The notes under the pieces were generated by a model. It ran no database searches, was not told the DNA's origin, and saw only the letters and a list, made by a program, of their open reading frames with translations. Shown in pieces: positions 25,285-59,552 of a stretch of 64,000 nt of DNA (position 1 is its first letter; every line of letters starts with the position of its first letter). Both the position numbers and the translations under genes were made by a program. Origin of the DNA: Escherichia phage vB_Ec-G1. The stretch lies in the sequence record PQ433349.1; one strand, given 5' to 3'.

Positions 25285-25462
25285 TTGTTTTCTCCTAGAT
25301 CTAAACTAATTAAGAAGTCACGAAGGATGATCATTTGTTCTGTAGACAATGATAACACACTCTCCTATTATTGTTCTTGATCTTACGATCATCTACCGAT
25401 AAGAACAAGTACTTAAATCTCTGTTCTTCGAACATCTAACGATAGAGATTAATCTATTACAT

Positions 25463-25526
25463 AATCTATACTCGCTATCGCTCGACCCTTCGGGGTTAGG
25501 GTAGCATATTTTTTGAAAAAAGTCAA
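25463..25526 (-). promoter_or_regulatory. conserved promoter-like element A (TTGACT-N17-TACCCT) with adjacent palindrome
   Basis: Minus-strand -35 TTGACT and -10 TACCCT spaced 17 bp, followed by ACCCCGAAGGGT palindrome and conserved arm CGAGCGATAGCGAGT; near-identical copy near 59324-59388. Confidence 0.45.
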
Positions 25527-25846
25527 CATTTATTTTTGGTAAGCAGATAAATCAACTGTTCACCTGCTTCTGGTGCATATAGTGATTTAGTATCGAAGTC
25601 AAAGAAGTGAGTGACTCCTGTTACTTTGGATGCCTGAATAGATAATCGTGCAAGCTTAAGCAGATTATCCATTTCCGCAATCTTTGCACGAAATACTGCA
25701 CGTGTAGCGTCAAAAGCTGCATGTGGCATGTATTTACGATTTAGACTACTACGTTTAAATTTACGATAATCTGCAATGATCTTGTTACGTTCTTTGTTCA
25801 AGTGCTTTACCAGTGCAGTGTATACATGTGGTTCTTTGTTAGCCAT
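25523..25846 (-). CDS. hypothetical protein
   Basis: Track ORF trimmed to ATG (MANKEPH) preceded by GAGGAG RBS. Confidence 0.5.
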   Translation of the reverse strand: MANKEPHVYTALVKHLNKERNKIIADYRKFKRSSLNRKYMPHAAFDATRAVFRAKIAEMDNLLKLARLSIQASKVTGVTHFFDFDTKSLYAPEAGEQLIYLLTKNKC

Positions 25847-26051
25847 TGTTAATCTCCTCTTCATATGTTGGTAGTGCATGGTATGCGATCACAGGTGCCA
25901 AGTCAAAATAAAAATGACCATTGATAACAGCTATCGTGCCATTGCGTGTTTTGTTAACTTCACAGAATCCCTTCTTGCCGTTTGCCATGATTACAAGCCA
26001 CTCTCCGATAGGAACATCCTCGGTACCAGATACTTTAATCCATCCACTCAC
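25839..26051 (-). CDS. small hypothetical protein (70 aa)
   Basis: Track ORF. Confidence 0.45.
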   Translation of the reverse strand: MSGWIKVSGTEDVPIGEWLVIMANGKKGFCEVNKTRNGTIAVINGHFYFDLAPVIAYHALPTYEEEINNG

Positions 26052-30927: not shown

Positions 30928-30952
30928 AACCCGCTTCGGCGGGTTTTGTTAT
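30928..30952 (+). terminator. rho-independent terminator
   Basis: AAACCCGC-ttcg-GCGGGTTT hairpin followed by TTGTT; identical hairpin recurs near 62387. Confidence 0.7.
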
Positions 30953-30988
30953 ATTGATTTCAGTTTAATAGGAAGAGAATTGTTAGAT

Positions 30989-33169: not shown

Positions 33170-33520
33170 ACAAACCCTTATCTTTTTCAGTTTGCATCAC
33201 TAGGATTCGATCTAAGTGGGTTCCTGAAGGTCTGCCAATAAGATTAAAGGTTATCTCAAATTCCCACTACCTATTATCTCAAAAATCCCTCAAATTATTT
33301 AAACTTTTTAAGAATTTACAAAAGTGAAAGTTGAAAACCAAAATTTAAAGTTTAGGAAAATTATCTTAAAATGTTAGATACAAAACAAAACTCAAAAATC
33401 AAGGAAAATTTTAAAAATTTTGCGCGCCCACAGTATTTAAAGTTTTTTTGCTTTTACAAAAATGAAAGTACAAAAGCAAAATTTAAAGTTTACAAAAATT
33501 TATGCAGATGGGAATGAGAA
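33170..33520. repeat. AT-rich intergenic region with short direct repeats
   Basis: Repeated TTATCTCAAA, AAATTTAAAGTTTA and TTTACAAAARTGAAAGT units; no ORF. Confidence 0.45.
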
Positions 33521-33620
33521 GAGTTCTCATATGGAAATGCAAATGATAATGATTCGCATTTAGGTTTATAAATGAGATTGATTCTTATTCAATAAGGTAA
33601 ATGATAATCATTCTCATTTA
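33512..33620. promoter_or_regulatory. three tandem palindromic operator-like sites (Fur-box-like)
   Basis: ATGAGAAgagTTCTCAT, AAATGATAATgATTCGCATTT and AAATGATAATcATTCTCATTT; resemble the TGATAATnATTATCA Fur-box core. Confidence 0.45.
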
Positions 33621-33878
33621 AAGAATGACGCGCAGGGGCGGTGTTTGTCTCGCGCTCCCGTGTCCCCTCGCCATGTAATAAGAATAACAGATCCAGCCAG
33701 GAAAGCAAGCGATTATTTTATCTTTACATTTCTTTACAAATATATAGCGCCCAGCCTACCGGCGATCAACCTTCCAACCAGTGCCCCCTGGTATGTTAGC
33801 CCCGCCTTTACGCCGTGGGGTGGCGCTTCCTCTTCTGTATGTAAAACAGTATAAGCCCGATCCCTGGGCTTGTCAAGA

Positions 33879-34254: not shown

Positions 34255-34313
34255 TTGACGTTCGCCAGGTGGCGGCATAATATTTACCACGTAGGGCGGC
34301 AATGGTGCCGCTC
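34255..34313 (+). promoter_or_regulatory. cassette 1: promoter + stem-loop
   Basis: TTGACG-N17-TAATAT then GGGCGGCaatggtGCCGCTC. Confidence 0.55.
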
Positions 34314-34332
34314 ATTATTTGGAGTTAAAATC

Positions 34333-34530
34333 ATGGCAACATTGCACATTGTGGCGAAAGCTGGACAAATAAACGTGGTAGTAAACGGTTTTACTGAGTT
34401 CAGTCATCCCCAGGATGATCATGAAACGGTTTTATCTTTCATTGATTCACTGTTAGAAATGGGAGTAATTACAGAAGACCAGCACGCTACAAAATGCAAG
34501 CGCGTTAATCAAATTGCAGGGATAGAATAA
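34333..34530 (+). CDS. small hypothetical protein
   Basis: Track ORF 34255..34530 trimmed to ATG downstream of cassette 1 hairpin with GGAG RBS. Confidence 0.5.
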   Translation: MATLHIVAKAGQINVVVNGFTEFSHPQDDHETVLSFIDSLLEMGVITEDQHATKCKRVNQIAGIE

Positions 34531-34536
34531 AAAGTA

Positions 34537-34599
34537 TTGACAACAAACAACAACCTGATAAGATGTATCACATAGGGCGGCGGAATGGTCCAGCCGCTC
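34537..34599 (+). promoter_or_regulatory. cassette 2: promoter + stem-loop
   Basis: TTGACA-N16-TAAGAT then GGGCGGCGGaatggtCCAGCCGCTC. Confidence 0.55.
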
Positions 34600-34622
34600 A
34601 CAACAGAAGAGAGATTATAATC

Positions 34623-34895
34623 ATGGCATCATATAGCGCAACAATGATCGTAGCTGGCACCACTGGTAAACCTATGCGCGGTGGCGGATCTTTCGCTAAT
34701 ATCAATATTGACGGGCGTTTATCCCTGGACGCAGCGATCACCGTGGCGCGGGAAACATTTAAGAAAGAATGTAAATTCAATAAACAAGATTATCTCGGTT
34801 TCGCTATTGAAAAAACCGCGCGTTTTGTTGATTATAAAAGCCCAAAAATGGTTGATACTACACTAAAAGCGCAAGATGTAGCGTTTTTGCTTTAA
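34623..34895 (+). CDS. hypothetical protein
   Basis: Track ORF 34563..34895 trimmed to ATG after cassette 2 leader. Confidence 0.5.
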   Translation: MASYSATMIVAGTTGKPMRGGGSFANINIDGRLSLDAAITVARETFKKECKFNKQDYLGFAIEKTARFVDYKSPKMVDTTLKAQDVAFLL

Positions 34896-34898
34896 GGC

Positions 34899-34954
34899 TT
34901 GACATTAACGAATAATTTGTTAATATGTTACATAAAGCGGGAATAGTTCCCGCT
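34899..34954 (+). promoter_or_regulatory. cassette 3: promoter + stem-loop
   Basis: TTGACA then GCGGGAAtagTTCCCGC hairpin. Confidence 0.5.
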
Positions 34955-34971
34955 ATTTGTAAGGTGGTAGA

Positions 34972-35229
34972 ATGTTTTACATCAAATTAAAAGGTCACGT
35001 GATCGCGTTCAAAGATAACGCTTTTTACAGATTAGCAAAATATGCGTTAATACATCCCCACTATGTTTATATAAGGGGGCGTGATGAAATAAATATCTTT
35101 GATCAAACAACATGCGAGAACATCGAGATCCGCAAGGTTGGCGTACGTGATTATCGTACATCTTTCTACCCTTGCAAGGATTCAGCAAGTCTTTTTAAAG
35201 TATGCCAATTGTTGAAAAAAGGTGGTTAA
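34972..35229 (+). CDS. hypothetical protein (85 aa)
   Basis: Track ORF after cassette 3. Confidence 0.5.
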   Translation: MFYIKLKGHVIAFKDNAFYRLAKYALIHPHYVYIRGRDEINIFDQTTCENIEIRKVGVRDYRTSFYPCKDSASLFKVCQLLKKGG

Positions 35230-35230
35230 T

Positions 35231-35788
35231 ATGGGCCGCGAATATGTGATCCAGTCTTGGGTAAAACATGAAGCAGATGATCCGCGCATCATTCCCGATC
35301 ATCTTATCGATGAATCCACGGGATATAGCGGTGAGCAAATAGGTAACAGATTAGCACGTAGTAACGGCAACGTAAAAGCGCGTTATGTGCGCCCTGGTTG
35401 GCTGGCAAATGGTAACGCTGATTTATCCAGTGCGGAAGATGCGAGCGACGGCGCGAAAGATAATCCTTTGTACAAAGTTGATCCGGCTTTTCGTGTCCTG
35501 GATGAATACCCCAGCAAGATAGCGGCGCTCGATCAGGCCCTGGAAAGTAAGCGCATCACCTGGACCGCTTACAACATGGCAAAAAACGTACTTGATGGTA
35601 AATTGATTCAAGCTGAAAGAAAATTAGCCAAAATTGCAGCCATAGCCCAGGAGGAAGACGAGGAGACAACGGAAGAGGAAGAGTACGAAGAGATCCCGCC
35701 GTTGTTGTGTGTTGATGCTTTTCCTGATTATCAGCCGACAGAGGAAGAAAAAAGGATCGCACTAGAAAACTTTGAAAATAGTCTTTGA
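35231..35788 (+). CDS. hypothetical protein with acidic C-terminus
   Basis: Track ORF trimmed to ATG after AAGGTGG RBS. Confidence 0.5.
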   Translation: MGREYVIQSWVKHEADDPRIIPDHLIDESTGYSGEQIGNRLARSNGNVKARYVRPGWLANGNADLSSAEDASDGAKDNPLYKVDPAFRVLDEYPSKIAALDQALESKRITWTAYNMAKNVLDGKLIQAERKLAKIAAIAQEEDEETTEEEEYEEIPPLLCVDAFPDYQPTEEEKRIALENFENSL

Positions 35789-35843
35789 CATATCGCCGCC
35801 ACTGGCATAATATTTACCACGTAGGGCGGCAATGGTGCCGCTC
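35785..35843 (+). promoter_or_regulatory. cassette 5: promoter + stem-loop
   Basis: TTGACA-N17-TAATAT then GGGCGGCaatggtGCCGCTC (near-identical to cassette 1). Confidence 0.55.
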
Positions 35844-35870
35844 ATAGTGAAATTATGCAAGAGGCTTACA

Positions 35871-35966
35871 ATGATTAATAAAGAAAATAGCTTGACGGTT
35901 GGAACGATTAACGCTATCATTCTAGCCGTTCCATTTTGGATTGTAGTAGCGGCTATTATTTTCTAA
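35871..35966 (+). CDS. small hydrophobic peptide (~31 aa)
   Basis: Below track cut-off; single predicted transmembrane helix; downstream of cassette 5. Confidence 0.3.
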   Translation: MINKENSLTVGTINAIILAVPFWIVVAAIIF

Positions 35967-35974
35967 AAATATTC

Positions 35975-36036
35975 TTGACAACGTTTTTTAATCTGATAAG
36001 ATGTATCACATAGGGCGGCGGAATACTTCCCCGCCA
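35975..36036 (+). promoter_or_regulatory. cassette 6: promoter + stem-loop
   Basis: TTGACA-N16-TAAGAT then GGCGGCGGAAtacTTCCCCGCC hairpin. Confidence 0.5.
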
Positions 36037-36056
36037 AAACAAAAAAGGGTAACACA

Positions 36057-36419
36057 ATGAGCAAGCAAATCAATACTATCATGTTTAATCTGGTATCTTT
36101 CCGCGATGATATGAAAAATTTACCACGTGAAACGGTTGATATTCATGTTTCAGCTTATCGCGCCCTTATTGACATGTTACCGCTAAAACGTGATCAACAT
36201 GCCGCTAATATGATGCTTAATGCTATGCTTAAAAAGATGATTCAAACGGATCTTACTCTGGCGTATGAGTATCAAGGGCGCTTATATGCGACTTACAACA
36301 AAGCGGTACCTGGTCTGGGAAGTACCGAAGAGTTGCACGGCTTAAACCTGGATCAAAACACTTGGGATAGTATGCGCCGCGTTATGGTATGGGCCGAAAG
36401 CGGTAAAATTTACGAATAA
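36057..36419 (+). CDS. hypothetical protein (120 aa)
   Basis: Track ORF after cassette 6. Confidence 0.55.
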   Translation: MSKQINTIMFNLVSFRDDMKNLPRETVDIHVSAYRALIDMLPLKRDQHAANMMLNAMLKKMIQTDLTLAYEYQGRLYATYNKAVPGLGSTEELHGLNLDQNTWDSMRRVMVWAESGKIYE

Positions 36420-36425
36420 AAACGG

Positions 36426-36482
36426 TTGACACTGTTTAAACTTCTGGTATAGTTTATCACGTAGGGCGGCAATGGTGCCGCC
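36426..36482 (+). promoter_or_regulatory. cassette 7: promoter + stem-loop
   Basis: TTGACA-N17-TATAGT then GGGCGGCaatggtGCCGCC. Confidence 0.55.
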
Positions 36483-36502
36483 AACAATAAAAGGTTAACA
36501 TC

Positions 36503-36682
36503 ATGGCTATCATTGCAAAAACTGAGATTATAGGTTTAGATTCGATCCTCCTGGCTTATGAGGAAACTTTAAAAATGTATGTAGTGACCTATGGTGATTA
36601 TGTGCGTGAATACGAATACATTGATCTTGCTTTCGAATGTTACATTCGCCAGGTCAATAAAGCCTATAATGATTATCGTTAA
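36503..36682 (+). CDS. small hypothetical protein (~59 aa)
   Basis: Below track cut-off; follows cassette 7 with RBS. Confidence 0.4.
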   Translation: MAIIAKTEIIGLDSILLAYEETLKMYVVTYGDYVREYEYIDLAFECYIRQVNKAYNDYR

Positions 36683-36701
36683 AAGTTTTAGTCTTATACT
36701 A

Positions 36702-36753
36702 TTGACAATGAGTGATAGTATAAGCATAATAACTTTTATCGGGAATACTTCCC
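36702..36753 (+). promoter_or_regulatory. cassette 8: promoter flanked by palindrome, short stem-loop
   Basis: CTTATACTAtTGACAATGAGTGATAGTATAAG inverted repeat spanning -35; CATAAT -10; GGGAAtacTTCCC hairpin. Confidence 0.45.
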
Positions 36754-36779
36754 ACTAACCAAAAAGAGAGAGTGACACC

Positions 36780-37145
36780 ATGGCTATTAATATCAATGTT
36801 TCCGCTTATGCTACCCTGGCTAACACGGCTAAAATTGAATTATCCAGCATTGAGGCGGTGCATATTAGCGCCCGTCGCTGGTTTCAACGGTCCTACGGTA
36901 ATACATATTTTTCTTTAATGGTTGACGTTGAGATCGGCGGTAAACTGATCGAGGTGGTTAACGTTCCGTTTCAATATGGCTATGGTGATCATTTTGATAC
37001 CGTCGCCCTGGAAGAATTTAGCAAGGTTATTAATATGGAAGGTAAAGAGTTTTCACGTGGCGCGTATCTTTCCCGTTTTTGCCGTGATAATGGGATCACT
37101 GTATACAGTCATGCAAGCGATGTAAAACGTAAAAAAGATTTATAA
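36780..37145 (+). CDS. hypothetical protein (121 aa)
   Basis: Track ORF after cassette 8. Confidence 0.55.
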   Translation: MAININVSAYATLANTAKIELSSIEAVHISARRWFQRSYGNTYFSLMVDVEIGGKLIEVVNVPFQYGYGDHFDTVALEEFSKVINMEGKEFSRGAYLSRFCRDNGITVYSHASDVKRKKDL

Positions 37146-37151
37146 AAAGCA

Positions 37152-37210
37152 TTGACAGCACGAATAAAAAGAGTAAACTGTATTACATAGAGAGCGGGAA
37201 TAGTTCCCGC
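37152..37210 (+). promoter_or_regulatory. cassette 9: promoter + stem-loop
   Basis: TTGACA then GCGGGAAtagTTCCCGC. Confidence 0.5.
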
Positions 37211-37234
37211 CTCACTGAAAAAGAGAGAAAAATC

Positions 37235-37474
37235 ATGGCTAAATCTAAAATGTACAACGGTCACAAAAACAAAACTCATTGGAATGTAAGCCTGTGGATT
37301 AATAACGATGAGGGATTGTATCGGTTTGCATTGGGATTGATCAATGAGTGCGGTAATAAAGATCAGGCGGCTGATTTAATGTGCTACCGTTTGAAACAGG
37401 ATGGAATCACTACAACGCCAGACGGCTTTAAGTATAGTAAAACTGCAATCCGCGCCGCTATGGTTGGAATGTAA
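37235..37474 (+). CDS. hypothetical protein (79 aa)
   Basis: Track ORF after cassette 9. Confidence 0.5.
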   Translation: MAKSKMYNGHKNKTHWNVSLWINNDEGLYRFALGLINECGNKDQAADLMCYRLKQDGITTTPDGFKYSKTAIRAAMVGM

Positions 37475-37483
37475 TAAAAACAG

Positions 37484-37544
37484 TTGACAACGTTTAAAAT
37501 TAGTGTAAGATGTATCACATAGGGCGGGAAATGGTTTCCCGCTC
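37484..37544 (+). promoter_or_regulatory. cassette 10: promoter + stem-loop
   Basis: TTGACA-N16-TAAGAT then GGGCGGGAAatggtTTCCCGCTC. Confidence 0.55.
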
Positions 37545-37568
37545 ACAACAGAAGAGAGATTAAAGATT

Positions 37569-37796
37569 ATGGCTATCAATATTGTTCGCGTATCCGGTAC
37601 CGTTGGTAACTCCCAGGTTGTAGCAGTTATCACAGAGAAGAAAGGGGATGATCTTCACTCTTCCTTGAATAGCTGGGCGGTCGCTAACTTCGGGCAATGG
37701 TCGAGCGTTGAGTACATCGAATCCTACCAGGTGCCGACGATTAGCCTAACCGATCTCAACGTTGATCGCTTGTTGTGCCTGGATGAATTAATCTGA
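37569..37796 (+). CDS. hypothetical protein (75 aa)
   Basis: Track ORF after cassette 10. Confidence 0.5.
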   Translation: MAINIVRVSGTVGNSQVVAVITEKKGDDLHSSLNSWAVANFGQWSSVEYIESYQVPTISLTDLNVDRLLCLDELI

Positions 37797-37806
37797 AAAA
37801 AGATTA

Positions 37807-37868
37807 TTGACACCGGAAAGAAAAAGAGTAGAATATATTACATAGGGCGGCGGAATGGTCCACCGCTC
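37807..37868 (+). promoter_or_regulatory. cassette 11: promoter + stem-loop
   Basis: TTGACA then GGGCGGCGGaatggtCCACCGCTC. Confidence 0.55.
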
Positions 37869-37891
37869 ACAACAGAAGAGAGATTATCACG

Positions 37892-38107
37892 ATGGCTAAT
37901 ATCCGCACTTTACTGAAAAATGCAAGTCAAGTTTTATTTTCAGATGACGAGTATTTCAATAAAGACATTACAGGCGTGAAAAATTTAAAAGACGTGAAGG
38001 ATGTTATCGGTATCCGTGGATCTTTACGTAAGGGCGATTACTACGGTAACAAGGTGCAATATAAACTGTCAAAGGATTACAATTTTACTTTGACAATTAT
38101 TTCATAA
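37892..38107 (+). CDS. hypothetical protein (71 aa)
   Basis: Track ORF after cassette 11. Confidence 0.5.
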   Translation: MANIRTLLKNASQVLFSDDEYFNKDITGVKNLKDVKDVIGIRGSLRKGDYYGNKVQYKLSKDYNFTLTIIS

Positions 38108-38113
38108 AACCGC

Positions 38114-38173
38114 TTGCAATACTGCAAAAATAAAGTAAACTATATTCATCAAGGCGGGGAATGGTCCGCCGCC
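38114..38173 (+). promoter_or_regulatory. cassette 12: promoter + stem-loop
   Basis: TTGCAA-like -35 then GGCGGGGaatggtCCGCCGCC hairpin. Confidence 0.45.
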
Positions 38174-38197
38174 TAACAAAGAGAAGAGGAAAACATC

Positions 38198-38365
38198 ATG
38201 ATCACTTTCGCTACCCGTGAAGCCGCTCGCAACGTTGCACGTAAAGTTAACGCCGCCAACCTGGGCGCTACGCTTAAAGCCCCGGTGAAAGATGAATCAG
38301 GCAAATGGATCTTCCCTGGTCTGCGTCATGCTGACAAGTTAGGTACTTTAAGCCTTAAAAAATAA
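38198..38365 (+). CDS. small basic protein (~55 aa) starting MITFA
   Basis: Below track cut-off; shares MITFA N-terminus with next ORF. Confidence 0.4.
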   Translation: MITFATREAARNVARKVNAANLGATLKAPVKDESGKWIFPGLRHADKLGTLSLKK

Positions 38366-38368
38366 TCG

Positions 38369-38403
38369 TTGACTTTTCGTTATAGCGCCTTACAATGGGC
38401 GCT
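38369..38403 (+). promoter_or_regulatory. cassette 13 variant: promoter with palindrome overlapping -10
   Basis: TTGACT-N16-TACAAT; TATAGCGCC...GGCGCTATA inverted repeat spans the -10. Confidence 0.45.
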
Positions 38404-38439
38404 ATAGAGAAGAGAAACCACTGCTAACAAGGAAACATC

Positions 38440-38661
38440 ATGATCACTTTCGCTATTGTCGCCGTTGTCGCTGGTCAGGTTTACGTAAACGATACATTCA
38501 CCACAGAAGACAAGGCCGCAGGAGACATAACCGCCGTTTACAATGAGTGCAAGGCAGTAGAAAGGATGTTAGCGCCTTGTATGCTAATGAGTGAACGCCA
38601 GGACGGGATAACAGTATTTACTAACATTGAAACAGGGTACCAAATGGTAGTAACAAAATAA
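38440..38661 (+). CDS. hypothetical protein (73 aa) starting MITFA
   Basis: Track ORF. Confidence 0.5.
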   Translation: MITFAIVAVVAGQVYVNDTFTTEDKAAGDITAVYNECKAVERMLAPCMLMSERQDGITVFTNIETGYQMVVTK

Positions 38662-38664
38662 AGC

Positions 38665-38723
38665 TTGACACGGATTTAATTTTTAGTAAACTGTTACACG
38701 TAGGGCGGGAATAGTTCCCGCTC
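38665..38723 (+). promoter_or_regulatory. cassette 14: promoter + stem-loop
   Basis: TTGACA then GGGCGGGAAtagTTCCCGCTC. Confidence 0.55.
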
Positions 38724-38740
38724 AAAAAGAGAGAAAGACC

Positions 38741-39094
38741 ATGAAAGCACAAAATGCAATTAAAGAGTACATCCTTGCCGCTATCGATTTTAATGATTAC
38801 GGTATTACAACCGAAAAAGAGAAGATCGCGGAATTGATGCGCCGTTTTAATTCCGAGTACTGGTACCCTGATAACCAATCACGTTTTAATTATAGTATTG
38901 TTAAAGCACTTGCATCATGGTTACAAGGCTTGCCATCAGATATCAATATCGCTTTCGAATATTGGGAAATTGATCGCCTGTTAACATCCTGGGGATACAT
39001 TAAAGAGAATAGCAGCGATGATAAAATCCAACGAGAAAGGGAAAATTATTGGCTTTATATTGCAGGCGTGATCCTTGCTTGCTCTTATGAATGA
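38741..39094 (+). CDS. hypothetical protein (117 aa)
   Basis: Track ORF after cassette 14. Confidence 0.55.
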   Translation: MKAQNAIKEYILAAIDFNDYGITTEKEKIAELMRRFNSEYWYPDNQSRFNYSIVKALASWLQGLPSDINIAFEYWEIDRLLTSWGYIKENSSDDKIQRERENYWLYIAGVILACSYE

Positions 39095-39100
39095 TAAACC

Positions 39101-39154
39101 TTGACAATTTTACAAAACAGTTTAAATTAACAATATAGCGGCAATGGTGCCGCT
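39101..39154 (+). promoter_or_regulatory. cassette 15: promoter + stem-loop
   Basis: TTGACA then AGCGGCaatggtGCCGCT. Confidence 0.5.
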
Positions 39155-39173
39155 CATATGAAGAGGAAACAAA

Positions 39174-39320
39174 ATGAATACATCTAATCGCGCAGAAAAA
39201 ATTCAATCTTCCAAGATCCGCAAGGCCTGGAACGAGGAAGTGATCCGCAAAGGCGACAAGCGCAATAAAACAAAGCGCGGGAAGAGTGACAAATATAATT
39301 GGATGGATTTAGAGGATTAA
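39174..39320 (+). CDS. small basic protein (~48 aa)
   Basis: Below track cut-off; RBS AGAGGAAA; followed by terminator. Confidence 0.4.
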   Translation: MNTSNRAEKIQSSKIRKAWNEEVIRKGDKRNKTKRGKSDKYNWMDLED

Positions 39321-39327
39321 CATAACA

Positions 39328-39355
39328 AGGGCGCACCAAGCGCCCTTTCTTTTTA
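39328..39355 (+). terminator. rho-independent terminator
   Basis: AGGGCGC-acca-AGCGCCCT hairpin followed by TTCTTTTTAT. Confidence 0.65.
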
Positions 39356-39375
39356 TATACAGAGGATAAACAAAG

Positions 39376-39561
39376 ATGACTTTAAACGAGCTTAAAACAG
39401 CCTACAACGCAACATTAAAAATAGCCGTGCGTTACCGTGATGCGTATGGTTTTATCGCGCAGGGCGTGATCCTGGGCTTTTCTGACGATGGTTTGATCTA
39501 TGTTGATGCACATCACAACAAGGTTAAACCTGAAAACGTCATTAACATAAAATATCTTTAA
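39376..39561 (+). CDS. small hypothetical protein (61 aa)
   Basis: Track ORF. Confidence 0.45.
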   Translation: MTLNELKTAYNATLKIAVRYRDAYGFIAQGVILGFSDDGLIYVDAHHNKVKPENVINIKYL

Positions 39562-39567
39562 AAACGG

Positions 39568-39627
39568 TTGACACCATAACCGGACCTGTTAAACTGTATT
39601 ACATCAGGCGGGGGAATAGTTCCCCAC
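39568..39627 (+). promoter_or_regulatory. cassette 16: promoter + stem-loop
   Basis: TTGACA then GGCGGGGGAAtagTTCCCC. Confidence 0.5.
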
Positions 39628-39647
39628 CATACAAAAAGGTAAATATT

Positions 39648-39854
39648 ATGATCACCGCAAAACAAGAAAAAATTATTATCGACGTTGCAGCCGTTGCCGC
39701 TATTGCTATTATTGGATCTTATTATGATACCCGTTTCCCGTCGGCTATGCATGAGATCGCCGCCGTTGCATCAGTTGGCGTGCTGTTTTACGTTGGTAAA
39801 CGCTATTTATCACCAATGATTAACAAGCTAACACCGTGGAAAAATAAAGGTTGA
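39648..39854 (+). CDS. small membrane protein (68 aa)
   Basis: Track ORF; hydrophobic segments. Confidence 0.5.
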   Translation: MITAKQEKIIIDVAAVAAIAIIGSYYDTRFPSAMHEIAAVASVGVLFYVGKRYLSPMINKLTPWKNKG

Positions 39855-39905
39855 TCCTGCTTTATATTGTGTTATAGTTATCGTGTAGGGCGGCAATGGT
39901 GCCGC
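39851..39905 (+). promoter_or_regulatory. cassette 17: promoter + stem-loop
   Basis: TTGATC -35 then GCGGCAatggTGCCGC hairpin. Confidence 0.45.
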
Positions 39906-39926
39906 GCCCCCTTTGAGGATGAAATC

Positions 39927-40211
39927 ATGAGTAAAGCTAACACCGTGCTAATGTTTTCCTTGGTTAATGATGCCGCTTACTTGTCCAACATGACGCAGGA
40001 GGGTAACACATTAACGGCAACATTCACCAATAAGCTTAATCGAGTGATCATCATCTCACTGAAAACAATTAGTAAAGGCGTTTACTCGTTAGCTTATCAT
40101 TGGATCACTGATACCAACGAGACAAGCCAGGACTATAGCGCCCCTTTCCCTGAATCAATGGCACGGGAGATCATCGCCGCCGTTGTAAATGATGGTTTGT
40201 TTACTGCATAA
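39927..40211 (+). CDS. hypothetical protein
   Basis: Track ORF 39867..40211 trimmed to ATG after hairpin/RBS. Confidence 0.5.
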   Translation: MSKANTVLMFSLVNDAAYLSNMTQEGNTLTATFTNKLNRVIIISLKTISKGVYSLAYHWITDTNETSQDYSAPFPESMAREIIAAVVNDGLFTA

Positions 40212-40229
40212 AATAATTTAGAAAAAGGC

Positions 40230-40286
40230 TTGCAATCATTTTGAGATAGTGTATATTTAATTCATAGGGCGGCGGGAATAGTTCCC
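40230..40286 (+). promoter_or_regulatory. cassette 18: promoter + stem-loop
   Basis: TTGCAA-like -35 then GGCGGGAAtagTTCCC. Confidence 0.45.
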
Positions 40287-40309
40287 AAGGCAAACGAGAG
40301 GATTACACG

Positions 40310-40429
40310 ATGAGCAAGTACACAGTAGAATACACGGTACAAAATCCGGCAGTATCCGAAGGTAAAAAGATGACATTTGCCATCAGTATAATCGCTTTCG
40401 TTGTCACTATCTTATTAATCATCTTATAA
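40310..40429 (+). CDS. small hydrophobic peptide (~39 aa)
   Basis: Below track cut-off; C-terminal transmembrane helix; RBS GAGAGGA. Confidence 0.3.
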   Translation: MSKYTVEYTVQNPAVSEGKKMTFAISIIAFVVTILLIIL

Positions 40430-40439
40430 GGTGCGTACC

Positions 40440-40601
40440 ATGAAAACAACAGACATTATCAAAGAGATCGCCCTTGCCGCTGACGTTGAGATCGAGGAAG
40501 TGATCGCGCTCAATCTTACAGAAGAAGACTTGCGCAATTATGAAGCGGAAAGCGTGAAAGCAAGCGGCGCGGTCCTGGCATATAATCCGGCTAACAAGTA
40601 A
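40440..40601 (+). CDS. small acidic protein (~53 aa)
   Basis: Below track cut-off; same direction, short spacing. Confidence 0.3.
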   Translation: MKTTDIIKEIALAADVEIEEVIALNLTEEDLRNYEAESVKASGAVLAYNPANK

Positions 40602-40610
40602 GGGGATAAC

Positions 40611-40760
40611 ATGAATCCGAAAGATATGCAAGCATGGAAAGGGTACGACGATCTAAGCGCCTTGCGCAATAAGTCAAGCCGTAACCTTAGACGGTTAGAA
40701 GCAAAGAAAAAGAAAAACAGTTTGACAAGTCCGCTTAATCTGGTAAAGTGTATCTCGTAG
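40611..40760 (+). CDS. small basic protein (~49 aa)
   Basis: Below track cut-off; GGGGA RBS; 3' end overlaps next cassette. Confidence 0.25.
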   Translation: MNPKDMQAWKGYDDLSALRNKSSRNLRRLEAKKKKNSLTSPLNLVKCIS

Positions 40761-40778
40761 GGCGGCAATGATGCCGCT
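40722..40778 (+). promoter_or_regulatory. cassette 19: promoter + stem-loop
   Basis: TTGACA then GGGCGGCaatgatGCCGCTC. Confidence 0.55.
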
Positions 40779-40798
40779 CACAAGAAGAGAGAAAAATC

Positions 40799-41083
40799 AT
40801 GAAGATCACAAAAAGCCTAACTAATTATGCAGCACGTCGCGGATTATGCTTAACCGTTGAAAACTTAGGGAAAGAAGATTTTTTGTGTTTTTGGGAGCTT
40901 GAAAATGATTGCGAGTGGATGTTTTCTTATTCTATCTGCGAAGATCAAAACGGTTGTTTGTTAACCTGGCGCGGTAATATCTATTTACCGCAAGAAATTA
41001 AAGAGGAATTACCAGGTACGATCATGACAGAGAGACAGCTTAAGGAAGTGATCAATTTTGTAGGGCAAAACATTAAAAAATAA
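40799..41083 (+). CDS. hypothetical protein (94 aa)
   Basis: Track ORF after cassette 19. Confidence 0.55.
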   Translation: MKITKSLTNYAARRGLCLTVENLGKEDFLCFWELENDCEWMFSYSICEDQNGCLLTWRGNIYLPQEIKEELPGTIMTERQLKEVINFVGQNIKK

Positions 41084-41084
41084 T

Positions 41085-41146
41085 TTGACAGCAGGCAAAC
41101 AACGTAGTAAAGTTTATCACATAGGGCGGGAAATGGTTTCCCGCTC
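41085..41146 (+). promoter_or_regulatory. cassette 20: promoter + stem-loop
   Basis: TTGACA then GGGCGGGAAatggtTTCCCGCTC. Confidence 0.55.
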
Positions 41147-41167
41147 ACAGCAGAAGAGAGACACATC

Positions 41168-41338
41168 ATGATCCCGACTATGTTTTATGTATCGCGCAAA
41201 GGTCACAATATTTTTTGGTCTGAAGATTTAAATGAAGCTATGACGTTTGCCCGTGATCGTGTTGCTATCGGTGGCGTTAATATCACCGTAACCGATGAAA
41301 ACGGCATTGAATACTATAACGGCGACGATGAAGAGTAA
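41168..41338 (+). CDS. small hypothetical protein (~56 aa)
   Basis: Below track cut-off; follows cassette 20; followed by AAGCTGTATT...AATACAGCTT hairpin. Confidence 0.4.
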   Translation: MIPTMFYVSRKGHNIFWSEDLNEAMTFARDRVAIGGVNITVTDENGIEYYNGDDEE

Positions 41339-41397
41339 TTAACAACCTGGAAGCTGTATTTTTACAATACAGCTTAAAAGGTGTAGTAAAATAATTC

Positions 41398-41467
41398 TTG
41401 ACAATAGTTTGTTACTTGATAGAATGTATCACGTAGGGCGGGGCAATAAGGCAACGCCCATTAATGA
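41398..41467 (+). promoter_or_regulatory. cassette 21: promoter + stem-loop
   Basis: TTGACA then GGGCG...CGCCC hairpin with larger loop. Confidence 0.45.
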
Positions 41468-41477
41468 GGGTAGAATC

Positions 41478-41582
41478 ATGTTAGAGAAAATTTTCACGGT
41501 TGTAATAGTAGGCCTGGCGTTATCGGTTGGAGTGGTTGCAACTATGGCTAACATGATCCTATCTTCCCACGGTATCGATTAA
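41478..41582 (+). CDS. small hydrophobic peptide (~34 aa)
   Basis: Below track cut-off; single transmembrane helix. Confidence 0.3.
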   Translation: MLEKIFTVVIVGLALSVGVVATMANMILSSHGID

Positions 41583-41592
41583 GGTGAAACAG

Positions 41593-41808
41593 ATGATCAC
41601 GAACAAAACAGGCAAAACAGAATTTTTACGCGGCTTACAAGTCGGTAAGCCTGAGATCTGGCATTGCAGCAAGTCGGCGCATAACGAAATGAAAGACTTT
41701 ACCGCTACTTTACAACGTGTTAAAATATCTATCACACAGAAAAAAGCCTTGTTAGTAGTAGAAAACGAGATCCCGCAAACTATTATTATTGTCGAGCGTA
41801 CAGCATGA
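41593..41808 (+). CDS. hypothetical protein
   Basis: Track ORF 41584..41808 trimmed to ATG after AAGGTG RBS. Confidence 0.5.
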   Translation: MITNKTGKTEFLRGLQVGKPEIWHCSKSAHNEMKDFTATLQRVKISITQKKALLVVENEIPQTIIIVERTA

Positions 41809-42191
41809 AAACAGAAATCATTATTGAAATCATCAACGGTTATAAAGAAGCCTTTATTTTTGCTGAATCAGCCAGGGATCACGAAGGTAATTTTATTGAT
41901 AACTTAGACGATTATGATTTTTCAGATCAAGCCCATCAGCGGATCGCCCAGGATGTAACAGCCTTTATTAATGCTAATCTTGCCGCTATCTCTGAGGCAA
42001 TGAGCGACGGCGCAACAGCCAACCAGATCGGGAATGATTTACATTTTACCCGTAACGGTCACGGCGTAGGATTTTGGGATCGCCCTGAAATATACACCAC
42101 TAACACGGCGAACCGCCTAACCAATGCAGCTAAGTTTATGCCGAATGTGTCGGCTTACATTGGTGAAGATAATTTGATTTATATTGAATAA
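41805..42191 (+). CDS. hypothetical acidic protein (128 aa)
   Basis: Track ORF, overlapping start/stop with upstream gene. Confidence 0.55.
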   Translation: MKTEIIIEIINGYKEAFIFAESARDHEGNFIDNLDDYDFSDQAHQRIAQDVTAFINANLAAISEAMSDGATANQIGNDLHFTRNGHGVGFWDRPEIYTTNTANRLTNAAKFMPNVSAYIGEDNLIYIE

Positions 42192-42197
42192 AAAGTA

Positions 42198-42254
42198 TTG
42201 ACACAGATCGCCAGTGTGCTAATATTTACCACGTAGGGCGGCAATGGTGCCGCC
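42198..42254 (+). promoter_or_regulatory. cassette 23: promoter + stem-loop
   Basis: TTGACA-N17-TAATAT then GGGCGGCaatggtGCCGCC. Confidence 0.55.
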
Positions 42255-42272
42255 GATAACGAGGAAAGTAAA

Positions 42273-42572
42273 ATGGAAACTATCGCTATTGTTACCGTAG
42301 AAAAACTGGTTGTTGGTGATGTATTCGCGTTAATGGTGCCTAACAGCAGCAAGCTGGGCGCTTATGAAGTGATGGACCATAAAAATGAATCATTTGGCGA
42401 CGGTTGCACAATGGCGGTAAGATCCTTAAAGGATGGAATCATCCGCCAGGCTAACTGGCACAAAGGGAATCAAGTCGGTTTAATATCAGCTAATTTCTTG
42501 CCAGAAGAGCAAACATTAGACCAACTATCAGGCGGTAAGACGTTAGCCGAACTACTGGAAACAGCGATCTAA
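42273..42572 (+). CDS. hypothetical protein (99 aa)
   Basis: Track ORF after cassette 23; followed by GGGGCGgcaaCGCCCC hairpin. Confidence 0.55.
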   Translation: METIAIVTVEKLVVGDVFALMVPNSSKLGAYEVMDHKNESFGDGCTMAVRSLKDGIIRQANWHKGNQVGLISANFLPEEQTLDQLSGGKTLAELLETAI

Positions 42573-42625
42573 TCAACAAAGGGGCGGCAACGCCCCATTA
42601 AACGCAATAGGAAGAGGATAGACAC

Positions 42626-42916
42626 ATGAAAAAGATGATCGCAGTAGTTGCCCTGGTTGTTGGTATTAACGCGCCTGTACTGGCTAATGAGTTGCCAGAA
42701 TCCATCACGCTAACCGATATCCACGCAATAAACCGGATCGGCGTTAATTATCGCCTATGCCTTGCCGCTAAAACTTTTAAGGACGGCGAAACAGAATATC
42801 ACGGATTCGAGGGCATCCGCTGCGGTGAGCTTGCACGCGACCTTAAGGAAGATCCAGACCTTGAGGCCATACCGATGACCGTAAACGGTAAAGCCTACGT
42901 AAGCCGCCAACAATGA
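42626..42916 (+). CDS. secreted hypothetical protein
   Basis: 96 aa; signal peptide MKKMIAVVALVVGINAPVLA. Confidence 0.55.
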   Translation: MKKMIAVVALVVGINAPVLANELPESITLTDIHAINRIGVNYRLCLAAKTFKDGETEYHGFEGIRCGELARDLKEDPDLEAIPMTVNGKAYVSRQQ

Positions 42917-43047
42917 GAAAGGTAATCATCACAATGGGGATCATAGTAGCGACGCTGGCGCTTATCCCCTTTATAGTTGAATATGTGCTGATAAGTGTTG
43001 TCCTGGTAGTCAGTGACCTATTGGAAACGGTTGGCAACTGGTTTTAA
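42913..43047 (+). CDS. small hydrophobic peptide (~44 aa)
   Basis: Below track cut-off; ATGA overlap with upstream stop; hydrophobic throughout. Confidence 0.3.
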   Translation: MRKVIITMGIIVATLALIPFIVEYVLISVVLVVSDLLETVGNWF

Positions 43048-43225
43048 AAATAAGAAAAACAGGACTTGTTTTTGTTCTGTTTTTTGTTATACTTATTGAA
43101 CGGGCGGCACCTGGAAGCAGGGGGAAGATAATCACCGGAAGACCCCGCTATATATTGATAACTAACGCCTATCAAACAACAAAACATCAAAGGAATAAAC
43201 TATCAAATCTTTACAATTCTACCTA

Positions 43226-59229: not shown

Positions 59230-59323
59230 TTAATAGATGGTAGATAGATGATCATAGTTTATCTACCTTCACTTACGTTTCATACCTCACTATCGTGAGT
59301 AACATGAAACATTATTATATAGA

Positions 59324-59388
59324 AATCTACTACTCGCTATCGCTCGTAAACATATGTTTAGGGTACCATATTTTTTTGAAAAAGTCAA
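59324..59388 (-). promoter_or_regulatory. conserved promoter-like element B (TTGACT-N17-TACCCT) with adjacent palindrome, antisense to plus block
   Basis: Same conserved arms as element A; central palindrome is AAACATATGTTT instead of ACCCTTCGGGGT. Confidence 0.45.
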
Positions 59389-59522: not shown

Positions 59523-59552
59523 TTGACAAACTCACAAAGCTTGTGTTACATT
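59523..59552 (+). promoter_or_regulatory. sigma70-like promoter
   Basis: TTGACA with TACATT about 18 bp downstream, upstream of 59590 gene. Confidence 0.4.

What the first reader, a model, noticed from the sequence alone, without database searches (positions are those of the whole stretch)
25463..25526. Two copies of a conserved promoter-like element with a covarying palindrome, 34 kb apart
Elements at about 25463-25526 and 59324-59388 share a left arm ACTCGCTATCGCTCG and right arm TAGGGTA.CATATTTTTTGAAAAAGTCAA, which on the minus strand reads TTGACT-N17-TACCCT. The sequence between the arms is a different perfect palindrome in each copy (ACCCTTCGGGGT versus AAACATATGTTT). Copy A lies upstream of minus-strand genes; copy B points antisense into the plus-strand block and is followed by nested hairpins without an ORF, so it could drive a small antisense or non-coding RNA. 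The two copies are direct repeats flanking the entire plus-strand block.
Basis: seen in the sequence. Interest (0 to 1): 0.6.

Follow-up and report, generated by a model that had tools for sequence, protein, structure and literature searches.

The report
Three-copy phage promoter with mini-hairpin box
The two look-alike elements are real and belong to a set of exactly three promoter-like signals, conserved across a whole subfamily of large E. coli phages, each joining a host-type promoter to an invariant 13-14-base hairpin-forming box; nobody appears to have described them, and how the box works is still open.

Summary
The window is a Phapecoctavirus (phAPEC8/ESCO13-like E. coli myophage). Both elements exist as described. 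Read on the minus strand each is TTGACT, a 17-bp spacer ending in TGn, TACCCTA, a 12-nt variable segment, then the box CGAGCGATAGCGAG. Complete relatives carry exactly three copies. The third lies outside the window, before the tRNA/late block. The same three copies, in the same three gene contexts, occur in Justusliebigvirus and in metagenomic relatives (28 distinct versions). Copy A is an internal sense promoter of the minus-strand replication block. Copy B points against its neighbours in all five lineages examined and has no ORF downstream. The "covarying palindrome" is only partly true. A short inverted repeat is universal in class A, with real compensatory changes, but it is absent in some B and C copies. 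It straddles the predicted start site, so it cannot be a complete RNA hairpin. The invariant part is the box. Its core GCG-N(N)-AGC fits the published "mini-hairpin DNA" motif, and all family variation falls on the loop. It resembles the RfaH ops hairpin in architecture (9/12 identical) but lacks the bases RfaH needs. Best reading: a specialised host-RNAP promoter class with a promoter-proximal single-strand hairpin signal. The mechanism is unproven. The copies do not flank the plus-strand block.

The parts
25521..25526 (-). Copy A, -35 hexamer TTGACT. The TGA stop codon of upstream ORF 25523..25879 lies inside it.
   Evidence: TTGAC[T/A] in 25 of 28 distinct family members.
25504..25520 (-). 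Copy A, 17-bp spacer TTTTTCAAAAAATATGC: a T-run, C, an A-run, ending in the TGn of an extended -10.
   Evidence: spacer 17 bp in 21 and 18 bp in 7 of 28 members; 76% A+T.
25497..25503 (-). Copy A, -10 hexamer TACCCT plus invariant A.
   Evidence: TGnTACCCTA occurs only in the elements.
25485..25496 (-). Copy A, variable segment ACCCCGAAGGGT. It is an inverted repeat ACCC/GGGT and contains CCGAAGG, a GAA-triloop mini-hairpin type. The predicted transcription start at about 25490-25492 falls in its centre.
   Evidence: The start position is inferred from the usual 7 +/- 1 nt distance to the -10 hexamer.
25471..25484 (-). Copy A, box CGAGCGATAGCGAG, with core GCGATAGC = GCG-NN-AGC.
   Evidence: the box occurs only in the elements; predicted hairpin; motif definition.
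25360..25470 (-). Copy A leader (5' UTR). Hairpin ATCTCT...TGTTC-GAA-GAACA...AGAGAT at 25417-25449. Second hairpin at 25373-25406, annotated as a terminator in phage ASO2A. Shine-Dalgarno AGGAGAG at 25360-25366.
   Evidence: The outer stem covaries with contig L012 (ATCTCT/AGAGAT versus GTTTCT/AGAAAC).
59383..59388 (-). Copy B, -35 hexamer TTGACT.
59366..59382 (-). Copy B, 17-bp spacer TTTTCAAAAAAATATGG with TG of an extended -10.
59359..59365 (-). Copy B, -10 hexamer TACCCT plus A.
59347..59358 (-). Copy B, variable segment AACATATGTTTA. With neighbouring bases it forms the 14-nt perfect palindrome TAAACATATGTTTA (59347-59360). The predicted start is at about 59352-59354.
59333..59346 (-). 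Copy B, box CGAGCGATAGCGAG.
   Evidence: the only consensus pairs found in the class B alignment.
59239..59332 (-). Region downstream of copy B on the minus strand. Nested hairpin at 59277-59310 and hairpin at 59239-59267. The latter, read on the + strand, is the predicted terminator of the preceding + genes. There is no conserved ORF on either strand.
59523..59552 (+). Canonical + strand promoter (TTGACA, 18 bp, TACATT with TG) divergent from copy B. It restarts + transcription towards ORF 59590.

Best explanation
The two elements are members A and B of a three-member class of host-RNA-polymerase promoters that fire on the window's minus strand. The class is conserved throughout Stephanstirmvirinae phages. 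Each element has four parts: an A-rich upstream stretch; a near-consensus -35 (TTGACT); a 17-18 bp A/T-rich spacer; and an extended -10 with an unusually C-rich hexamer (TGnTACCCTA).

Eleven to fifteen bases after the -10, at roughly +8 to +22, comes an invariant box CGAGCG-N(1-2)-AGCGAG. Its core is a GCG-N(N)-AGC mini-hairpin flanked by two G.A mismatches and a C-G pair.

Shown: the sequence architecture, the copy number, the conservation, and the gene contexts.

Inferred: RNA polymerase starts about 7 nt after TACCCT. The box then acts as a single-strand hairpin signal on the sense strand, either in the non-template DNA of the early elongation bubble (as the ops hairpin does for RfaH) or at the 5' end of the RNA. 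That signal marks these three transcripts for a factor or a fate that ordinary early transcripts do not get, most plausibly processivity or antitermination.

Copy A feeds the long minus-strand replication and nucleotide-metabolism block. The third copy feeds the tRNA, lysis and structural block. Copy B fires against the early genes, giving either a short non-coding RNA or antisense and convergent transcription that damps the early block.

The stated confidence (0.6) is for the elements being promoters that fire on the minus strand. For the box acting as a factor-loading or processivity signal I put about 0.25-0.3.
For: - Motif and chance.
- Exactly three copies per genome in two genera. The box and TGnTACCCTA never occur apart from each other.
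- 28 distinct versions from phage records, IMG/VR and metagenomes keep the -35, a spacer of 17 bp (21 members) or 18 bp (7 members), TG, TACCCTA and the box. The -10-to-box distance floats between 11 and 15 nt. Rigid spacing in the promoter part with a floating distance to the box is what a sigma-70 promoter followed by a separately read element predicts.
- BLAST between genera aligns only the element, at about 75% identity, and not its flanks.
- Contexts are conserved. Class A has co-directional genes on both sides and a structured, covarying leader running to a Shine-Dalgarno sequence. Class C sits at a divergent junction ahead of PRPP synthetase or the tRNA and late genes. Class B is antisense in 5 of 5 lineages.
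- An A-rich AAATAAA stretch lies near -50.
- All box variation (AT, A, C, GG, including the change between 1 and 2 nt) falls on the free loop positions of the published mini-hairpin motif GCGNAGC/GCGNNAGC.
- Folding predicts stem / 2x2 G.A / GC / loop for 5 of 6 copies.
- Pairs flanking the box average 2.0 against 1.03 in permutations, with 0 of 2000 permutations reaching the observed value. Several are G.T pairs that exist only on the sense strand.
- ops GGCGGTAGCGTG contains the same GCG-NN-AGC scaffold and works as a non-template-strand hairpin.
Against: - No transcript data exist for any of these phages.
- TACCCT matches the -10 consensus at only 3 of 6 positions and fails the standard scan.
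- The predicted start falls inside the inverted repeat, whose role is therefore unexplained.
- Copy B has no gene and no conserved downstream structure.
- The box lacks ops G5 and T11. G5A abolishes RfaH recruitment, so the host factor that would be the obvious reader is excluded.
- No NusG-, sigma- or Q-like domain was found among about 80 early-block ORFs. No such product is annotated in PHB05.
- Predicted hairpin energies are small, and copy A has no stem extension around its box.
- The invariance of TACCCTA and the box in the 28-member set is partly imposed by my search patterns.
Confidence: 0.6

Rival explanations
1. Transcription-primed replication origins or priming signals. Host polymerase starts at the promoter part. 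The purine-rich sense strand folds into very stable DNA mini-hairpins (the variable segment and the box), which keeps the R-loop open. The phage's T7-like polymerase and primase-helicase then take over. Three such sites per genome would serve as origins rather than for gene expression.
For: - Mini-hairpin DNA motifs are reported at initiation sites: the G4, St-1 and alpha3 complementary-strand origins, RSF1010 ssiA (CCGAAGG, the very heptamer in copy A), and N4 early promoters.
- DNA versions are much more stable than RNA versions.
- The phages encode a T7-like DNA polymerase and primase/helicase.
- Copy B's gene-independent, antisense and strictly conserved placement is easier to explain this way.
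- Class C copies are followed within about 120-200 nt by an extremely A+T-rich stretch.
Against: - GC skew follows gene orientation only and shows no feature at B.
- No consistent A+T-rich unwinding element follows classes A and B.
- Class A runs straight into a structured mRNA leader and a Shine-Dalgarno sequence.
- No origin has been mapped in this phage group.
- All evidence is by analogy.
Confidence: 0.12
2. Ordinary promoters whose box is just a 5'-terminal stabiliser hairpin of the RNA, with no dedicated factor. It would protect three transcripts against 5'-end-dependent decay, as the early promoter family of the same phage does with its own 5' hairpin.
For: - The early promoters at 34.3-43.3 kb are each followed by a hairpin placed right after the predicted start.
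- The box would lie within about 8-22 nt of the 5' end.
- RNA folding predicts the hairpin.
- G.U-compatible flanking pairs occur on the sense strand.
Against: - A stabiliser hairpin should tolerate compensatory stem changes, as the early-family hairpins do. The 12 non-loop bases of the box are identical in every copy found in the two complete genomes and in the BLAST-detected relatives.
- The predicted RNA stability is low (0 to -8 kcal/mol), and copy A's is no better than shuffles.
- The RNA form of the motif is reported to be far less stable than the DNA form.
Confidence: 0.15
3. Double-strand DNA sites for a phage or host DNA-binding protein (operator, partition-like or nucleoid protein) that only resemble a promoter by chance. 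The AGCG...AGCG direct repeat and the palindrome would be the contacts.
For: - The box contains a direct repeat (GAGCG / AGCGAG).
- Some copies have true palindromes over the predicted start, a classic operator position.
Against: - The palindromes differ completely between copies and lineages, and some copies have none.
- The repeat spacing changes by one base.
- The -35, the 17-18 bp spacer and TG-TAnnnT are all conserved together, which a non-promoter site does not require.
- The loop-purine asymmetry and the G.T pairs are strand-specific.
Confidence: 0.06
4. Functional on the + strand, as a terminator or RNA element of + transcripts, or as direct-repeat recombination sites that could excise the 34-kb segment between them.
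For: - The terminator scan flags a weak hairpin plus T-rich tail on the + strand at 25485-25502.
- The two copies are direct repeats.
- PHB05 encodes a DNA invertase.
Against: - No terminator-like call is made at copy B.
- The T-run is 12 nt away from the hairpin.
- At copy A the + strand is antisense to every neighbouring gene.
- The third copy is inverted relative to A and B.
- The central segments of A and B differ, which site-specific recombinases do not tolerate.
- The spacer that faintly resembles a hix half-site is not conserved in the family.
- More than 60 related genomes keep the intervening block.
Confidence: 0.03

Closest known systems
ops element and RfaH (E. coli operon polarity suppressor in leaders of long LPS, capsule, hemolysin and F tra operons)
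   Same: - A short conserved element in the non-template (sense) strand of a promoter-proximal transcribed region ahead of very long operons.
- ops GGCGGTAGCGTG contains GCGGTAGC, the same GCG-NN-AGC scaffold as the window box GCGATAGC. The two are 9/12 identical.
- ops works by forming a tiny hairpin (C3:G8 pair, loop G4-A7) in the exposed non-template DNA.
   Different: - The box has A at ops position 5 and A at position 11. G5A abolishes RfaH recruitment and T11G is strongly defective.
- Other lineages have a 3-nt loop with no T6.
- No consensus pause signal is present.
- The box sits at about +8 to +22 rather than further down a leader.
- It is flanked by CGA...GAG, which ops lacks.
Mini-hairpin DNA motif GCGNAGC / GCGNNAGC (Hirao and co-workers), as found at the phage G4, St-1 and alpha3 complementary-strand origins, RSF1010 ssiA and N4 virion-RNA-polymerase promoters
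   Same: - Exact fit of the box core in all four variants (GCGATAGC, GCGAAGC, GCGCAGC, GCGGGAGC).
- Copy A's variable segment contains CCGAAGG, the ssiA heptamer.
- The known examples are associated with sites where polymerases start.
   Different: - Those examples act in single-stranded templates or for a phage-encoded single-subunit RNA polymerase. No such polymerase is annotated here.
- Here the motif sits just downstream of a sigma-70-type promoter in duplex DNA.
Lambdoid late-promoter and nut-type antitermination signals (PR' with Q, nutL/nutR with N, HK022 put)
   Same: A few copies per genome (two to three), each placed just downstream of promoters that head long transcription units. 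Each combines a conserved segment with a hairpin whose stem varies.
   Different: - No boxA (CGCTCTTA).
- No Q-, N- or NusG-like protein was found (annotations).
- The order and sequence of the parts differ.
- The variable hairpin would be only half transcribed.
Promoter-dependent phage origins (T4 ori(uvsY)/ori(34): middle promoter plus unwinding element; T7 primary origin: promoters plus A+T-rich region)
   Same: A promoter plus a downstream structural DNA element. There are several per genome. The replisome is T7-like.
   Different: No consistent unwinding element, and no replication data.
Canonical early promoters of the same phage (TTGACA, 17 bp, TAAGAT plus a conserved 5' hairpin; 34.3-43.3 kb)
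   Same: Same -35 and spacing, with a hairpin just after the start.
   Different: - The early family has A/T-rich -10 hexamers, a different and covarying hairpin, 13 or more copies, and always points with the genes.
- The three elements have TACCCTA, an invariant box, and one antisense member.

Membership tests
sigma-70-type bacterial promoter (extended -10 subclass) | -35 hexamer close to TTGACA | tested here: met
   TTGACT (5/6) in both window copies. TTGAC[T/A] in 25 of 28 distinct relatives and TTTACT in 3.
sigma-70-type bacterial promoter (extended -10 subclass) | 17 +/- 1 bp between the hexamers | tested here: met
   17 bp in both window copies. 17 bp in 21 and 18 bp in 7 of 28 relatives.
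sigma-70-type bacterial promoter (extended -10 subclass) | -10 hexamer resembling TATAAT | tested here: inconclusive
   TACCCT keeps the three key positions (T-12, A-11, T-7) but matches only 3/6. The consensus scan, which needs at least 4/6, lists neither copy.
sigma-70-type bacterial promoter (extended -10 subclass) | TG one base upstream of the -10 hexamer | tested here: met
   TGC (copy A) and TGG (copy B). TG is present in all eight copies of the window and the two complete genomes.
sigma-70-type bacterial promoter (extended -10 subclass) | Transcription actually initiates about 7 nt downstream | not testable with these tools
   No transcriptome or 5'-end data for Stephanstirmvirinae were found in the library.
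RfaH ops site | GGCGGTAGnnTG with G5 and T6 as specificity bases and T11/G12 for pausing | tested here: not met
   The window box aligns as AGCGATAGCGAG (9/12), with G1A, G5A and T11A. G5A abolishes recruitment and T11G is strongly defective. Other lineages have 3-nt loops.
RfaH ops site | Small hairpin in the non-template strand (C3:G8 pair, loop G4-A7) | tested here: met
   GCG-AT-AGC lies on the sense strand. The C:G pair and the G...A positions are retained. This is met by sequence only; the structure was not observed.
Mini-hairpin DNA motif | Sequence GCGNAGC or GCGNNAGC | tested here: met
   GCGATAGC in both window copies; GCGAAGC, GCGCAGC and GCGGGAGC in relatives.
Mini-hairpin DNA motif | Actually folds in vivo (strand separation or extrusion) | not testable with these tools
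   Nearest-neighbour models give only 0 to -3 kcal/mol for DNA. They do not carry the special GNA-loop bonus.
Lambda-type nut site | boxA CGCTCTT(T)A plus a boxB hairpin in the transcript, and an N-like protein | tested here: not met
   No boxA on the sense strand. The variable hairpin straddles the predicted start. No matching domain was found among about 80 early ORFs (a partial scan).
N4-type hairpin promoter | 5-7 bp stem with a 3-nt purine loop, read by a phage virion RNA polymerase | tested here: not met
   The box stem has 2 Watson-Crick pairs plus mismatches. No RNA polymerase gene is annotated in PHB05. The genome was not exhaustively searched.
Intrinsic terminator | G+C-rich hairpin directly followed by a T-run | tested here: not met
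   There is only a weak + strand call at copy A with a poor tail, and none at copy B.
Hin/Gin-type or other site-specific recombination sites | Identical crossover core, a conserved about 26-bp imperfect palindrome, and sites in a functional orientation | tested here: not met
   The central segments differ between copies. The spacer is not conserved. The third copy is inverted.
Known RNA families (Rfam 15, including JUMPstart) | Match to a covariance model | tested here: not met
   No hit at gathering thresholds in the window. Only chance-level hits (E 0.4-9) appear around both copies.

The most novel reading that the evidence does not exclude
The box is a new ops-like signal. It would be a DNA mini-hairpin that forms in the non-template strand within the first 25 nt after a dedicated C-rich extended -10 promoter, and it would load a still unidentified phage or host elongation factor onto RNA polymerase. 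That would make three transcripts terminator-resistant. Two would read through the 35-47 kb replication and late blocks. The third (copy B) would run backwards through about 32 kb of early genes to shut them off and then join the replication block.
Probability: 0.15. Interest if true: 0.8.

Novelty: new variant of a known kind. Interest (0 to 1): 0.55.

Why it matters
phAPEC8/phi92-like phages are widely isolated and proposed for therapy against avian and human pathogenic E. coli and Klebsiella, yet their transcription programme is unknown. These phages encode no recognisable RNA polymerase, sigma factor or antiterminator.

A strictly three-copy, subfamily-wide signal that couples a host-type promoter to an invariant hairpin box is the first concrete handle on how they separate early from later expression. 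If the box acts in the non-template strand, it would be a second natural example of the ops principle, with a different reader. If it acts in priming, it would locate the origins.

Either way it gives a 60-bp element that can be tested directly with reporters and 5'-end mapping. It also shows that the small ORF annotated over copy B in several records is probably not a gene.

Tried and rejected
1. Chance, or a window-specific duplication. Rejected: 0 matches expected, and the element is conserved in 120+ phage records and in metagenomes.

2. More copies in the window. None found by pattern, box-only, TACCCTA-only or profile search.

3. A wide family outside these phages. My degenerate scans returned many unrelated contigs. 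These come from an extremely abundant bacterial repeat, GTCATTCCGAGCG-N-AGCGAGGAATC, that happens to contain the box. TACCCT is absent upstream of it in 128 of 128 genomic sites, so those hits were produced by the search design and say nothing about the phage element.

4. A known RNA family. None.

5. A conserved small RNA downstream of copy B. Each lineage has local hairpins, but five lineages do not align and RNAalifold finds only the box.

6. The 39-aa ORF over copy B (phAPEC8_0059 / ASO2A_058). It is interrupted by stops in all frames in the other four lineages.

7. A replication origin seen in composition. The skew only mirrors gene strand.

8. A host homologue. No match in 5,426 E. coli genomes.

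9. A phage NusG, sigma or Q-like factor. Not found among about 80 early-block ORFs. The rest of the proteome was not scanned.

10. Literature. No paper in the library describes promoters or transcriptomes of this phage group. The best-annotated record, ASO2A, marks only canonical TTGACA/TATAAT promoters and none at these sites.

11. Recombination sites and + strand terminators. Rejected; see the rival explanations.

Full report
**What the window is.** Both regions are 98-99.7% identical to many Phapecoctavirus records (phAPEC8, ESCO13, ASO2A and others; Stephanstirmvirinae; genomes of about 150 kb). The window holds three gene blocks:
- a minus-strand block (461-27212);
- a divergent region;
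- a plus-strand block of small early-type ORFs (27327-62664), after which a second minus-strand block begins.

GC skew mirrors these blocks and nothing else.

**The observation.** Copy A (25470-25526) and copy B (59332-59388) share ACTCGCTATCGCTCG, then 12 differing bases, then TAGGGTA. This pattern gives 2 matches against 0 expected. The remainder is the same apart from one G/C difference and a one-base shift between the T-run and the A-run.

On the minus strand each copy reads:
- TTGACT;
- a 17-bp spacer ending in TGn;
- TACCCTA;
- a 12-nt variable segment;
- CGAGCGATAGCGAG.

Two details of the finding are inexact:
- Copy A's centre is a 4-bp inverted repeat around a non-palindromic loop. 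Only B is a perfect palindrome.
- The copies do not bracket the plus-strand block. A is 1.8 kb inside the minus block, and B is 3.3 kb short of the end of the plus block.

**Copy number and distribution.** I assembled two complete genomes from the phage collection: Phapecoctavirus 536P1 and Justusliebigvirus PHB05. Pattern scans, box-only scans and an nhmmer profile all give the same answer. There are exactly three elements per genome (E of 1e-13 or better), and the next hit has E = 0.76. The box and TGnTACCCTA never occur apart from each other.

The third Phapecoctavirus copy lies about 38.7 kb beyond B, outside the window and on the opposite strand. It sits in the divergent gap ahead of small ORFs, the tRNA cluster and the late genes. 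In PHB05 it lies ahead of PRPP synthetase and NAMPT.

Between the two genera, BLAST aligns only the element, at about 75% identity, and not its flanks. Scans of IMG/VR and of metagenomes added further relatives, giving 28 distinct versions.

**Anatomy across the family**:
- -35: TTGAC[T/A] in 25 members, TTTACT in 3.
- Spacer: 17 bp in 21 members, 18 bp in 7; 76% A+T, usually a T-run followed by an A-run.
- TG, then TACCCTA.
- A variable segment of 11-15 nt.
- The box CGAGCG-N(1-2)-AGCGAG, with loop A, C, AT or GG.
- An A-rich AAATAAA stretch near -50.

The promoter part is spaced rigidly, while the distance to the box floats. That fits a sigma-70-type promoter followed by a separately read element. 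One caveat applies: TACCCTA and the box were fixed in my collection patterns, so their invariance in the 28-member set is partly imposed. Their invariance in the eight copies found by looser searches in the window and the two complete genomes is not imposed.

**Contexts** (annotations):
- Class A (window copy A). Genes run the same way on both sides, and the stop codon of the upstream ORF overlaps the -35. A leader of 120-200 nt with covarying hairpins leads to a Shine-Dalgarno sequence.
- Class C. It sits at a divergent junction and points into the late block.
- Class B (window copy B). Every neighbour is on the other strand, in all five lineages examined.

In the window, B sits in a 360-bp gap. 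On one side is the predicted terminator of the preceding + genes (59239-59277, as annotated in ASO2A). On the other is a canonical + promoter at 59523-59552. The 39-aa ORF that some records annotate across B is broken by stop codons in the other lineages.

**The 'covarying palindrome'.** Across 23 distinct variable segments, the best hairpin stem averages 3.13 bp against 2.29 bp in shuffles. Seven segments reach 4 bp or more.
- In class A an inverted repeat is present in all seven lineages, with different stems: CCC/GGG, CAC/GTG, ACCT/AGGT, CCT/AGG, AACC/GGTT. They often surround a GAA loop. This is real compensation.
- No inverted repeat of 3 bp or more is present in Justusliebigvirus class B (ATCTTATATAC).
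- In Phapecoctavirus class C the best stem is no better than in shuffles (GAAATCTATTAA; 3 bp, P = 0.61). There the box is instead enclosed by TTAA/TTAA.

If TACCCT is the -10 hexamer, transcription starts in the middle of this segment. It therefore cannot be a complete RNA hairpin. Because its sequence is copy-specific, it is also unlikely to be one protein's operator. It may fold in the non-template strand of the open or scrunched complex. I regard its role as unexplained.

**The box.**
- Its core fits the published 'mini-hairpin DNA' motif GCGNAGC/GCGNNAGC: two G-C pairs and a sheared G.A pair. That motif is reported at the G4, St-1 and alpha3 origins, in RSF1010 ssiA, and in N4 promoters, and it is far more stable as DNA than as RNA.
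- All family variation, including the change between 1 and 2 nt, falls on the free loop positions.
- Folding predicts stem / 2x2 G.A / GC / loop for five of six copies.
- Flanking complementarity exceeds permutation controls (mean 2.0 against 1.03; 0 of 2000 permutations reach the observed value). It often uses G.T pairs that exist only on the sense strand.
- The purine loops are likewise on the sense strand, so the signal is strand-specific: either RNA or non-template DNA.
- The nearest functional analogue is ops (GGCGGTAGCGTG). It contains GCGGTAGC and recruits RfaH by forming a small non-template-strand hairpin. The window box is 9/12 identical to it.
- However, the box has A at position 5 and A at position 11. 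G5A abolishes RfaH recruitment, so this is not an RfaH site.
- No NusG-, sigma- or Q-like domain appeared among about 80 early-block ORFs.

**A false lead.** My degenerate scans also returned many unrelated contigs. They derive from a very abundant repeat, GTCATTCCGAGCG-N-AGCGAGGAATC, found as an exact 25-mer in species from many bacterial phyla and in one Nanoarchaeota MAG. It is usually one arm of a long inverted repeat. TACCCT is never upstream of it (0 of 128 sites), so the co-occurrence was produced by my pattern. In viral contigs the 13-mer is commonly the tip of a hairpin: at least 2 flanking pairs in 50% of 123 sites, against 6% by chance. That agrees with the box being a folding module but says nothing more specific.

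**Conclusion.** The finding is real and undersold in one respect: it is a subfamily-wide, three-copy signal. It is oversold in another: the palindrome is not the constant part, and the copies do not flank the block.

The best-supported reading is a specialised class of host-polymerase promoters with a promoter-proximal hairpin box. I put about 0.6 on these being promoters that fire on the minus strand. I put about 0.25-0.3 on the box acting as a factor-loading or processivity signal. The rivals are transcription-primed origins, a plain 5' stabiliser hairpin, and a duplex protein site.

No paper or annotation in the collections I could search describes the element. Nothing here shows transcription; 5'-end mapping would settle the first step.

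Noticed in passing
window 34267-43270, + strand: A family of at least 13 strong canonical promoters (TTGACA, 17 bp, TAAGAT/TATAGT/TAATAT). Each is followed by a conserved GTATCAC(A/G)TAGGGCGG and a G+C-rich hairpin with covarying stem and loop (GGCGGCAATGGTGCCGC, GGCGGGAAATGGTTTCCCGC and others) right at the predicted 5' end of the RNA. Many are then followed by AGAGAGAAAAATCATG-type ribosome sites.
   Followed up: partly
window 25351/25352: A 125-bp deletion relative to ESCO13 and about 60 other Phapecoctavirus records. It is bounded by an ATAA(T/C)ACAC microhomology and removes most of the first gene downstream of copy A (ESCO13_00244, 65 aa).
   Followed up: partly
window 33540-33625 and 44688-44716: Sequences very close to the E. 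coli Fur box, as I recall the consensus (GATAATGATAATCATTATC). AATGATAATGATTCGCATT and AATGATAATCATTCTCATT lie in tandem at 33.5 kb, and AATAATAATCATTCTCAT at 44.7 kb. The two sites bracket the early-promoter array, which suggests iron- or Fur-linked control of something in this phage.
   Followed up: no
window 33291-33362 and 33429-33500: Two 72-nt, 82% identical, extremely A+T-rich direct repeats in an ORF-free stretch (about 33.1-33.6 kb) next to the Fur-box-like sites. Possibly origin-like or a regulatory region.
   Followed up: no
loci L322-L441 (GTDB genomes) and many of L082-L201: The exact 25-mer GTCATTCCGAGCG-N-AGCGAGGAATC occurs in species genomes from Acidobacteriota, Chloroflexota, Planctomycetota, Gemmatimonadota, Bacteroidota, Patescibacteria, Firmicutes and a Nanoarchaeota MAG. 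Its reverse complement usually lies 20-50 nt downstream. It is a remarkably widespread palindromic repeat that I could not name; there is no Rfam hit in 12 loci.
   Followed up: partly
loci L023, L118, L135, L150, L151 and PHB05 130.45-130.6 kb (class A leaders): A conserved 5' UTR stem-loop, CTATTCGTTCC-TGAC-[hairpin]-GGAAGGGACGGATAG. Its inner hairpin covaries (CACTC/GAGTG, CTATC/GATAG, CATTC/GAATG). It lies ahead of a small conserved membrane protein (MDVMTMRF...). In PHB05 the sequence just after the box can pair with the Shine-Dalgarno region.
   Followed up: partly
window 59304-59423, + strand: The 39-aa ORF annotated here in phAPEC8 and ASO2A (phAPEC8_0059 / ASO2A_058) overlies copy B. 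It is not conserved as an ORF in four other lineages, so it is probably not a gene.
   Followed up: yes
window about 50025, 53613, 56920, 58225 (+ ORFs): Four or more paralogous small early ORFs share a C-terminal motif (R(I/L)xWVxDRI...) and a CxC-containing core. They appear to form an expanded gene family in the early block.
   Followed up: no
window 30928-30954 and 62387-62413: Two nearly identical strong terminator hairpins, AACCCGCTTCGGCGGGTTTT(T/G)T. The second lies at the convergent end of the + early block.
   Followed up: no
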